A stretch of 64,000 bases of DNA from Escherichia coli (GTDB taxonomy: Bacteria > Pseudomonadota > Gammaproteobacteria > Enterobacterales > Enterobacteriaceae): the NCBI RefSeq assembly GCF_030013205.1, contig NZ_CP122648.1; one strand, written 5' to 3'. Below, piece after piece: positions 15,301 through 18,300 of this stretch. Position numbers: made by a program. Numbering within the stretch: the stretch's first letter is position 1; each line of letters opens with the position of its first letter.

Positions 15301-18300
15301 TATCGATTTTTGCACGCCTTGCGTAAAGCGGCACGGCGCGGAGTGCGGATCAAACTGATCATTCAGGGCGAACCGGATATGCCGATTGTCAGAGTCGGCG
15401 CGCGTTTGCTGTATAACTATCTGGTTAAAGGTGGCGTTCAGGTGTTTGAGTACCGCCGCCGCCCGCTCCACGGCAAAGTGGCATTGATGGACGATCACTG
15501 GGCGACAGTAGGGTCCAGTAATCTCGATCCGCTCAGTTTGTCACTGAATCTCGAAGCAAATGTCATCATCCACGATCGTAATTTTAACCAGACGCTGCGC
15601 GATAATCTGAACGGCATCATCGCCGCAGATTGTCAGCAGGTGGATGAAACCATGCTGCCGAAACGCACCTGGTGGAATCTGGCCAAAAGCGTGCTGGCCT
15701 TCCACTTTTTACGCCACTTCCCGGCGCTGGTCGGCTGGCTTCCGGCACACACACCACGTCTGGCGCAGGTTGACCCGCCCGCTCAGCCGACAATGGAAAC
15801 GCAGGATCGGGTAGAAACTGAAAACACGGGGGTAAAACCCTGATGAGTAAATCACACCCGCGCTGGCGCTTAGCAAAGAAGATCCTCACCTGGCTGTTTT
15901 TTATCGCGGTGATTGTGTTGCTGGTGGTCTACGCCAAAAAGGTGGACTGGGAAGAGGTCTGGAAGGTCATCCGCGACTACAATCGCGTTGCGTTGCTCAG
16001 TGCGGTCGGGCTGGTGGTCGTCAGTTATCTGATTTACGGCTGCTATGATCTGCTCGCCCGCTTTTACTGCGGTCACAAACTGGCGAAGCGCCAGGTGATG
16101 CTGGTGTCGTTTATCTGCTACGCCTTCAACCTGACGCTCAGTACCTGGGTCGGCGGCATTGGTATGCGCTATCGTTTGTACTCCCGGCTAGGGTTACCGG
16201 GCAGCACTATTACGCGGATTTTCTCGCTCAGTATTACCACCAACTGGCTGGGCTATATTTTACTGGCAGGGATTATCTTTACCGCAGGCGTGGTGGAGTT
16301 GCCGGATCACTGGTATGTCGATCAAACCACGCTGCGCATTCTCGGCATTGGCTTACTGATGATTATCGCGGTTTATTTGTGGTTTTGCGCTTTCGCGAAG
16401 CACCGCCATATGACCATCAAAGGACAAAAACTGGTGCTGCCTTCATGGAAATTTGCCCTCGCCCAGATGCTGATTTCCAGCGTTAACTGGATGGTAATGG
16501 GAGCGATTATCTGGCTGTTACTCGGTCAAAGCGTAAACTATTTCTTTGTACTGGGCGTGTTGCTGGTTAGTAGCATTGCTGGCGTCATCGTGCATATTCC
16601 GGCGGGAATTGGTGTGCTGGAAGCGGTATTTATCGCGCTATTGGCTGGGGAGCATACCTCCAAAGGTACAATTATCGCCGCCCTACTCGCTTACCGTGTG
16701 CTGTATTACTTTATCCCACTGCTGCTGGCGCTGATCTGTTACCTGTTGCTGGAAAGCCAGGCGAAGAAACTACGGGCGAAAAATGAAGCGGCGATGTGAA
16801 GTATAGTTAAGTTCTTTAGTATGTGCATTTACGACTAATGAAAAAAACGCGTATGCCTTTGCCAGACAAGCGTTATAGCTATCGCGGCAAGTATCCCAAA
16901 GAAGCCGATAAAATAGTAATAGAGTGTTAATGCACCTGTAACAGCGCAACGAACCGGACTCCACAACTCTTCGCTATGGCATTTTCCTGCCAGTTCAAGG
17001 AGCTTATTTCGTCCATGCGAGATAATGCCTAACCATAACACAATCATTAAGCAACTTATTACCCAAACGGGTCGTTCACTCATTAATGCGGCATTCATGA
17101 TGATCACCAGGGCCAGCCCTGCGGTTGCCACCATACCCAAAGCGGTAATGAGCCATATACCGTTTAATATCCTGGCCTCGTGCTGAAAATCTAATTTATT
17201 GCTGTTTTGCGAGTATGATTCCATTCTTTTAGTTGTCCTTAGAAAAAATATTAATATTCACCATCAATAAATTTAAAACCACGCATACAAAATACTTTTG
17301 TATTTATGGATACGGAAAACACTTCCGCTCGGCCATAAGGCGTATTTTATACCTGGTACTTGTTAAGTGTCGTTTTTAGTAAGAAAAAAATCCCGACACA
17401 TGGCCGGGATATTGATGGTGAAAAAGAATTAACGGCGGTTGCCGAAGATCCGCAGCAACATCAGGAACAGGTTGATGAAGTCCAGATACAAGGTTAACGC
17501 GCCAAGAATGGAATATTTGCGCAGGTTCGACGTGTCGCGGGTATCAATCTGCTCACCCATATTTTTCAATTTCTGAGTGTCATACGCCGTCAATCCGACA
17601 AAGACAATCACGCCGATGTAGGTAACTGCCCACATCAATGCTTCGCTTTTCAGCCAGAAGTTGACCAGCGATGCCAGCACAATGCCGATTAACGCCATAA
17701 ACAGCATATTGCCAAAGCCGCTTAGATCGCGCTTCGTGGTGTAACCGTACAGGCTCATTGCGCCGAACATCCCGGCAGTAACGACGAAAGTACTGGCGAT
17801 AGAAGCTGCGGTATAGACAATGAAAATACTGGAAAGCGTAAGACCCGTCAGCGCCGAATAAAGCATAAAGAGCATCGTCGTTACACCTGCGCTCAGCTTT
17901 TGAATCATCGCTGATAACACAATAACCAATGCTAATTGCGCGATGATCAGACCGATTAAAAAGACACGGTTAGTGAACAACAGCTCCATCACGGCCGCGG
18001 AATTAGCCGCATACCAGGCAACAAATGCGGTCAGCAACAAGCCAACGGTCATCCAGCCATAGACTTGCGCCATATAAGTTTGCAAGCCAGCCCGGGGTTG
18101 TACAATTGAATCAGAACGTGGGAATCTGTCCATGACGATCTCCTGAAGATATAAGGAATATCTTAAGGATACTGCAAAATGATGAGGCTGTGCATCGACG
18201 CAGCGTAAACGCATGTACTGAGCGGTGAAATTGCCGGACGCAGCGGTGCCTTATCCGGCTAACAAAAAACTACCAGCGTTTTGCCGCCTGCTGATCGCTC

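What the first reader, a model, noticed from the sequence alone, without database searches (positions are those of the whole stretch)
16835..17224. Short membrane ORF where K-12 has ybhM
Only a 129-aa hydrophobic ORF lies between ybhN and ybhL, and the flanking sequence (17225-17400) is AT-rich. If the K-12 gene at this position is longer, this locus may be truncated or replaced in this strain.
Basis: inference. Interest (0 to 1): 0.2.

Follow-up and report, generated by a model that had tools for sequence, protein, structure and literature searches.

The report
Common in-frame deletion allele of ybhM
The short ORF is the E. coli membrane-protein gene ybhM with a clean 324-base internal deletion, a natural variant carried by about one in ten sequenced E. 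coli strains and already in the databases, so it is real but ordinary.

Summary
Window 16835-17224 (- strand) is a 129-codon hydrophobic ORF between ybhN and ybhL, followed by a stretch of 31-32% G+C.

It is ybhM, not a replacement. Against a K-12-lineage genome, everything is collinear except one gap of exactly 324 bp (108 codons, K-12 residues 36-143). This includes the start, the stop, both spacers, the published ybhM promoter and the ybhL terminator.

In full-length alleles the deleted segment is bounded by a 12-nt direct repeat with one mismatch, GCAGGG(C/T)TGGCC, spaced 324 bp apart. One hybrid copy remains at window 17111-17122, which points to a short-homology (slippage-type) deletion.

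The 7-helix Bax-inhibitor-1-type protein is reduced to 3 predicted helices: a helix 1/helix 5 hybrid, helix 6 and helix 7. It probably cannot work as a BI-1-type protein.

The allele is common, at about 572 of 5426 complete E. coli genomes. RefSeq annotates it as "hypothetical protein" or "Bax inhibitor 1 family protein", and one genome is 100% identical over the 801 bp compared.

Junction haplotypes differ between strains and mirror polymorphisms of the full-length repeats. This suggests the deletion arose more than once, or that there was very local recombination.

Interest is low. The sequence is already catalogued.

The parts
16835..17224 (-). ybhM deletion allele: 129-codon ORF, equal to K-12 YbhM residues 1-35 fused in frame to residues 144-237
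   Evidence: ORF list. DNA and protein alignments to K-12-lineage DH1 ybhM show a single 324-bp / 108-codon gap. Pfam Bax1-I matches only profile positions 129-205. RefSeq annotates the identical ORF in strain K_EC180 as WP_062876395.1, hypothetical protein.
17111..17122 (-). Deletion junction: the single hybrid copy (GCAGGGCTGGCC on the coding strand) of a 12-nt direct repeat that occurs twice, 324 bp apart, in full-length ybhM
   Evidence: Alignment of end points in 6 full-length and 16 short alleles. The repeat finder reports GGCCAACCCTGC / GGCCAGCCCTGC at spacing 324 in a full-length allele.
17225..17428 (.). Native AT-rich ybhL-ybhM intergenic spacer, same length as in K-12
   Evidence: Collinear with K-12, with only a few substitutions. 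G+C is 0.31-0.32.
17346..17373 (-). ybhM promoter ACGACA-16-TATAAA, intact
   Evidence: One exact match in the window, none in shuffles. The sequence is listed as the constitutive sigma-70 promoter of ybhM, with an H-NS flag, in PMC3946193.
17390..17410 (-). Terminator-like hairpin plus T-run just after the ybhL stop
   Evidence: Terminator scan. The hairpin is conserved in K-12.
15843..16799 (+). ybhN (flanking gene, convergent with ybhM)
   Evidence: ORF list. RefSeq annotation of the identical locus.
17429..18133 (-). ybhL (flanking gene, an intact 234-aa BI-1/YccA-family paralogue)
   Evidence: ORF list. RefSeq annotation. Pfam Bax1-I over the full profile, E = 1e-62. Match to B. subtilis YetJ structures.

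Best explanation
The ORF is a naturally occurring allele of the E. coli inner-membrane gene ybhM (Bax-inhibitor-1/YccA family) that has lost 324 bp (codons 36-143) in frame.

Shown: the gap is the only structural difference from K-12. It equals the spacing of a 12-nt imperfect direct repeat, GCAGGG(C/T)TGGCC, which encodes an A/T-G-L-A motif in both helix 1 and helix 5. One hybrid copy of the repeat remains at the junction.

Inferred: the deletion arose by short-homology misalignment, either replication slippage or another RecA-independent deletion between short direct repeats.

The product keeps the N-terminal tail, a hybrid of the first part of helix 1 and the last part of helix 5, and helices 6 and 7. 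An even number of membrane spans (four helix-equivalents) is removed, so the orientation of the remaining helices should be preserved. Four of the seven helices of the BI-1-type bundle are missing, so the protein most likely cannot perform whatever full-length YbhM does.

The promoter and start region are intact, so a 3-span remnant is probably still made. ybhM seems weakly constrained and dispensable: the paralogues ybhL and yccA remain, and many other disrupted alleles exist. The deletion therefore persists as a common, probably near-neutral polymorphism.
For: - Single 324-bp gap: one search shows one 324-bp gap with about 96-97% identity elsewhere. One search shows K-12 residues 36-143 missing and 95% identity over the retained part.
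- Ancestral state: the full-length form is ancestral. The E. albertii orthologue is 237 aa, the paralogues are 234 aa, and the Pfam profile is covered 3-205 by K-12 YbhM but only 129-205 by the short form.
- Repeats at the end points.
- Helix count: 7 hydrophobic or predicted helices in K-12 YbhM against 3 in the short form.
- Not an artefact: the window-type junction 80-mer occurs in 464 of 5426 complete genomes. About 102 further genomes carry the O103-type or related junction and 6 carry the O4-type junction. There is a 100% match to strain K_EC180. The exact protein is seen on at least 1000 contigs.
- Regulatory signals intact.
- Weak constraint on ybhM:
  - pN/pS is about 0.29 among full-length alleles.
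  - An IS5 insertion is present in HB101/RR1 (PMC5379014).
  - Frameshifted full-length alleles exist.
  - Other in-frame deletion alleles of 208, 195 and 216 aa exist.
  - The short allele itself has decayed further in some strains, with a +1 frameshift at the junction in ETEC1738 and Q122* in the O4-type allele.
Against: - Nearly all short alleles sampled keep an intact 129-codon frame, and pN/pS among them is low (0.13). That is not what a long-dead pseudogene would show. However, much of that variation is shared with full-length alleles and may have been imported.
- The deletion preserves frame and predicted topology, and it may have arisen more than once. Both points could mean selection for the short form rather than neutrality.
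- No expression or function data exist for either form.
- The 12-nt repeat is not exceptional among repeats in the gene, so a pure mutational hot spot is not obvious.
Confidence: 0.85

Rival explanations
1. The 129-aa product is a functional, selected mini-protein. On this reading, the topology-preserving deletion creates a 3-span protein that keeps helices 6-7 and acts on its own or by binding the paralogues YbhL/YccA or FtsH. This would explain why the allele is frequent and stays in frame.
For: - pN/pS is 0.13 among short alleles.
- The frame is intact in 14 of 16 sampled short alleles.
- Four junction haplotypes suggest repeated origin.
- The promoter is intact.
- The other, rare in-frame deletions (208, 195, 216 aa) each fuse neighbouring helices and would flip the downstream topology, whereas the common one does not.
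Against: - The polymorphisms are largely shared with full-length alleles, so the low pN/pS may be inherited or imported.
- Some short alleles carry a frameshift or a nonsense codon.
- Amino-acid changes private to the short alleles cluster in the hybrid helix: G36E, A38V and N44D.
- The AlphaFold model of the short form has low confidence (pTM 0.43).
- There is no functional evidence of any kind.
Confidence: 0.12
2. The short form is the original gene, and K-12-type ybhM gained 324 bp by insertion or internal duplication.
For: None beyond the bare length difference.
Against: The 324 bp encode helices 2-4 of a family whose profile the full-length protein covers end to end. The E. albertii orthologue and both E. 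coli paralogues are full length.
Confidence: 0.01
3. The locus was replaced by foreign AT-rich DNA, or the short ORF is an assembly or sequencing artefact.
For: Low G+C in 17150-17374. Other strains really do have replaced or expanded versions of this locus.
Against: The window is collinear with K-12 on both sides of a single clean gap, and the AT-rich spacer is the native one. The same junction is found in hundreds of independent complete genomes.
Confidence: 0.01

Closest known systems
E. coli K-12 ybhM (b0787), 237-aa BI-1/YccA-family inner-membrane protein of unknown function
   Same: Same chromosomal position between ybhL and ybhN. Same promoter, start and stop. About 95% amino-acid identity over the retained 129 residues.
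   Different: Lacks codons 36-143, which are the end of helix 1, helices 2-4 and the start of helix 5. It has 3 predicted helices instead of 7.
RefSeq WP_062876395.1 and its sister entries WP_000446924.1, WP_000446922.1, WP_001522650.1, WP_000446925.1, WP_000446923.1 and WP_000446942.1 (129-aa 'hypothetical protein' / 'Bax inhibitor 1 family protein')
   Same: WP_062876395.1 is annotated on the ORF of strain K_EC180, which is 100% identical to the window over the 801 bp compared. The other entries are the same deletion allele with 1-8 amino-acid differences.
   Different: None for WP_062876395.1. The database names do not say that the protein is a deletion derivative of YbhM.
BI-1 / TMBIM family as defined structurally by Bacillus subtilis YetJ (PDB 4PGR and others); E. 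coli YbhL and YccA
   Same: Sequence family PF01027. The C-terminal part (helices 5b-7) is still recognisable. The neighbouring YbhL aligns to YetJ along its length.
   Different: The seven-helix architecture is lost. Even full-length YbhM has H-G and Y where YbhL and YetJ have the two aspartates (YD...LDF), so YbhM is a divergent member whose activity cannot be assumed.
Spontaneous deletions between short direct repeats (the class known from E. coli lacI deletion hot spots; from my own knowledge, not checked in a paper here)
   Same: The deleted length equals the repeat spacing. One repeat copy is retained, and the repeat is about 12 nt with one mismatch.
   Different: Seen here as a standing natural polymorphism at about 10% frequency, possibly of multiple origin, rather than as a laboratory mutant.

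Membership tests
ybhM orthologue (E. coli b0787) | Lies between ybhL and ybhN, convergent with ybhN, behind the ybhL terminator and its own promoter | tested here: met
ybhM orthologue (E. coli b0787) | High sequence identity to K-12 ybhM along the gene | tested here: met
   About 96-97% DNA identity and 95% protein identity over the retained parts
ybhM orthologue (E. coli b0787) | Full length of 237 aa | tested here: not met
   129 aa, with 108 codons missing internally. It is therefore a deletion allele of the gene, not an intact orthologue.
BI-1/YccA family (Pfam PF01027 Bax1-I) | Profile match above Pfam's gathering score | tested here: met
   34.5 bits against a cut-off of 34.1, so only just, and covering only profile positions 129-205 of 207. 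K-12 YbhM scores 75.1 bits over 3-205.
BI-1/YccA family (Pfam PF01027 Bax1-I) | Seven transmembrane helices | tested here: not met
   Three hydrophobic segments and three predicted helices. K-12 YbhM has seven.
BI-1/YccA family (Pfam PF01027 Bax1-I) | Pair of conserved aspartates in helices 6 and 7 (the YetJ/YbhL 'YD' and 'LDF' positions) | tested here: not met
   YbhM, both short and full length, has SHG and YYF at the positions aligned to YbhL YD and LDF. YbhL matches YetJ at those positions.
BI-1/YccA family (Pfam PF01027 Bax1-I) | Three-dimensional fold like YetJ | tested here: inconclusive
Short-direct-repeat (slippage-type) deletion | The intact allele carries a direct repeat at both end points, the deletion length equals the repeat spacing, and one copy remains | tested here: met
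   GCAGGGCTGGCC and (A/G)CAGGGTTGGCC lie 324 bp apart in full-length alleles, and a single hybrid copy remains in the window.
Short-direct-repeat (slippage-type) deletion | RecA-independent, replication-associated origin | not testable with these tools
   Needs genetics.

The most novel reading that the evidence does not exclude
The same 324-bp in-frame deletion has arisen several times independently in E. coli and has been kept by selection. It would be favoured because it converts a 7-helix BI-1-type protein into a correctly oriented 3-helix protein with a new activity, for example a modulator of YbhL/YccA or FtsH.
Probability: 0.1. Interest if true: 0.45.

Novelty: already known. Interest (0 to 1): 0.15.

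Why it matters
It matters little for biology at large. The finding explains why about a tenth of E. coli genomes carry a 129-aa "hypothetical protein" where K-12 has ybhM: it is a deletion allele, and annotation could say so.

It also flags ybhM as a weakly constrained gene that decays in many ways. The ybhL-ybhN interval comes in at least four structural forms. The possible repeated origin of one precise, topology-preserving deletion is a small natural example of short-repeat deletion in a membrane-protein gene. It could be used to ask whether BI-1-family fragments retain any activity.

Tried and rejected
- **Replacement by foreign DNA.** Rejected, because the flanks and the AT-rich spacer are collinear with K-12.
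- **Single origin marked by the L31M change.** All nine of my first short alleles had M31 and no full-length allele did. Short alleles with L31 and other 5' haplotypes then turned up, so M31 marks only one sub-lineage.
- **Local trees from the flanks to count origins.** The region is too mosaic to resolve this, with up to 30 differences in 430 bp of ybhN and conflicting neighbours on the two sides.
- **Selection test on the short alleles.** pN/pS is 0.13, but shared polymorphism confounds it, so I do not take it as proof of function.
- **Sequence search of YbhM against solved structures.** No hit. Only YbhL reaches YetJ.
- **NCBIfam.** No model for YbhM.
- **Literature.** No paper on ybhM function or on this deletion was found.
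- **Is the 12-nt repeat unusually strong?** No. Several comparable repeats exist in the gene.

Full report
**What is there**

The window is E. coli chromosome. Around the finding lie ybhP (13844-14605, +), clsB (14602-15843, +) and ybhN (15843-16799, +). These are followed by a 129-codon ORF on the minus strand (16835-17224), ybhL (17429-18133, -) and moaE/D/C/B (-) (gene names from the RefSeq annotation of identical or near-identical loci). The ORF is hydrophobic.

**What it is**

The 801-bp region matched 5423 of 5426 complete E. coli genomes. One of them, K_EC180 from swine in Korea, is 100% identical.

- In most genomes the match came in two pieces spanning about 1125 bp and lay under a gene annotated ybhM.
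- In some it was a single 801-bp piece under a "hypothetical protein".

I aligned the window with a K-12-lineage genome (DH1) and two single-piece genomes. The alignment shows one gap of exactly 324 bp inside ybhM and nothing else structural. The start codon, the stop codon, the 35-bp spacer to ybhN and the 204-bp spacer to ybhL are all collinear. At the protein level, K-12 residues 36-143 are missing and the rest is 95% identical.

The AT-rich stretch is the native ybhL-ybhM spacer. It contains the ybhL terminator hairpin (17390-17410). It also contains, unchanged, the promoter ACGACA-16-TATAAA (17346-17373). A genome-wide study lists this as the constitutive sigma-70 promoter of ybhM and flags the spacer for H-NS (PMC3946193).

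**Direction of the change**

The long form is ancestral.

- K-12 YbhM covers the Pfam Bax1-I profile from position 3 to 205, while the short protein covers only 129-205 and barely passes the threshold.
- The E. albertii orthologue is 237 aa.
- The paralogues YbhL and a third BI-1 gene found in some strains are 234 aa.

**How it arose**

In full-length alleles the end points carry a 12-nt direct repeat, spaced 324 bp apart.

- The 5' copy reads GCAGG(A/G)CT(A/G)GCC.
- The 3' copy reads (A/G)CAGG(G/T)TTGGCC.
- In several lineages the two copies differ at a single base.

The window keeps one hybrid copy, GCAGGGCTGGCC, at 17111-17122. A deleted length equal to the repeat spacing, with one copy retained, is the signature of deletion by misalignment between short direct repeats. 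The mechanism itself is inferred, not shown. The repeat exists because helix 1 and helix 5 both contain an A/T-G-L-A motif.

A rarer 208-aa allele corresponds in the same way to a 22-nt imperfect repeat spaced 87 bp apart.

**Consequence for the protein**

Hydropathy analysis and an AlphaFold model (pLDDT 80, pTM 0.77) give K-12 YbhM seven helices: 5-43, 54-76, 79-100, 103-127, 134-155, 159-192 and 198-236.

The deletion removes the end of helix 1, helices 2-4 and the start of helix 5. What remains is a hybrid helix, helix 6 and helix 7. The short-form model has three helices with low confidence in their packing (pTM 0.43).

Four span-equivalents are lost, so the orientation of the remaining helices should be unchanged (inference). 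A seven-helix bundle cannot form, so loss of the normal YbhM activity is the likely outcome.

That activity is itself unknown. I found no paper on it. YbhM is a divergent family member that lacks the two aspartates shared by YbhL and the solved homologue YetJ. Fold searches with the YbhM model were uninformative.

**Population picture**

| Junction 80-mer | Complete genomes matched |
|---|---|
| Window type | 464 of 5426 |
| O103 type | 107, of which 102 are too different to have seeded the first search |
| O4 type | 12, of which 6 are exact matches to the O4-type junction that the window-type query could not have seeded |

Together this is about 572 genomes, or 10.5%. They come from humans, pigs, poultry, dogs, cattle and water.

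The exact window protein is on at least 1000 contigs in the large protein collection, in a cluster of 452 variants. Its database names are "hypothetical protein", "FtsH-binding integral membrane protein" and "Bax inhibitor-1 family protein". The sequence is therefore already catalogued.

**One origin or several?**

The short alleles fall into at least four junction haplotypes:

- TATGGTGGCAACC-GCAGGGCTGGCC-CTGGTG (the window; it carries L31M, which I found only on short alleles)
- TTTGGTGACAACC-GCAGGACTGGCC
- TTTGGTGGCAACC-GCAGGACTGGCC
- TTTGGTGGCAACC-GCAGGGTTGGCC-CTGGTA

The variable bases coincide with polymorphisms of the 5' and 3' repeat copies and their immediate flanks in full-length alleles. 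All four combinations of deletion state and base are present at sites 18 and 8 bp upstream of the repeat, inside it, and 3 and 10 bp downstream. Also, 12 of the 37 sites that vary among short alleles lie in the 16% of the gene next to the junction.

Transfer of a deletion by homologous recombination should carry such close neighbours along with it. Repeated independent deletion on different ybhM backgrounds is therefore the more economical reading; I put it at about 60%. Very local conversion or repeated point mutation cannot be excluded. The flanks are too mosaic to settle the question.

**Neutral remnant or selected mini-protein?**

Evidence for weak constraint on ybhM:

- pN/pS is about 0.29 among full-length alleles.
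- There is an IS5 insertion in HB101/RR1 (PMC5379014).
- Frameshifted full-length alleles exist, as do other in-frame deletions.
- Some short alleles have decayed further, with a +1 frameshift at the junction in ETEC1738 and Q122* in the O4-type allele.

Evidence against a long-dead gene:

- Most short alleles keep the frame, and their pN/pS is 0.13.
- However, most of that variation is shared with full-length alleles and may not have arisen on the short background.

I favour a near-neutral loss-of-function polymorphism. I give about 0.1 to a selected function.

**Verdict**

This is a real feature that is now fully explained. It is an internal in-frame deletion allele of ybhM, common in the species and already present in RefSeq. 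The ideas of terminal truncation, replacement and a foreign AT-rich flank were not. Interest is low.

Noticed in passing
L004:2418-3122 (E. coli SCPM-O-B-9427): Some strains carry a third BI-1-family gene (WP_001299026.1, 234 aa, 27% identical to YbhM) inserted between ybhL and ybhM. There the ybhM has a different N-terminus (MNSRSANNITN...), like E. albertii. In one search, about 1018 genomes matched the query in two separate places rather than one, possibly for this reason.
   Followed up: partly
L005:3104-3695 (E. coli 23CRST031): In this strain ybhM is absent. The ybhN-ybhL interval instead holds a 73-aa hypothetical gene and a DUF3969 pseudogene with an internal stop. This is a fourth structural state of the locus.
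   Followed up: no
L006:1213-1671 and L011:1213-1671 (strains 222 and F5446): An IS200C transposase gene sits in the spacer upstream of the short ybhM allele, about 270 bp from its start, so it may separate the gene from its promoter.
   Followed up: no
P0027 (208 aa), P0031 (195 aa), P0017 (216 aa); repeat D1 in L015:782-890: There are other rare in-frame deletion alleles of ybhM, each between short repeats: FLIS (87 bp, between 22-nt imperfect repeats), IIV and AI. Unlike the 324-bp deletion, each fuses two neighbouring helices and would invert the downstream topology.
   Followed up: partly
L008:554-944 (ETEC1738); L019:1501-1890; L023:967-1679 (MS10711): Secondary decay is visible in three alleles. 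One short allele has a +1 frameshift exactly at the junction (AACC-A-GCAG). Another short allele has a nonsense codon (Q122*, giving a 121-aa product seen on 248 contigs). One full-length ybhM is frameshifted.
   Followed up: partly
window 16370-16799 and the homologous 430 bp in loci L001-L025: The 3' end of ybhN is unusually diverse and mosaic between strains, with up to 30 differences in 430 bp (about 7%). Its nearest neighbours disagree with those of the ybhL-side flank, which indicates frequent recombination around this locus.
   Followed up: partly
window 16835-17224 and K-12 YbhM (L001:1636-2349): Even full-length YbhM lacks the two aspartates that YbhL shares with the solved homologue YetJ (SHG for YD, YYF for LDF). 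YbhM may therefore not share the pH-sensing or ion-leak chemistry ascribed to the family.
   Followed up: partly
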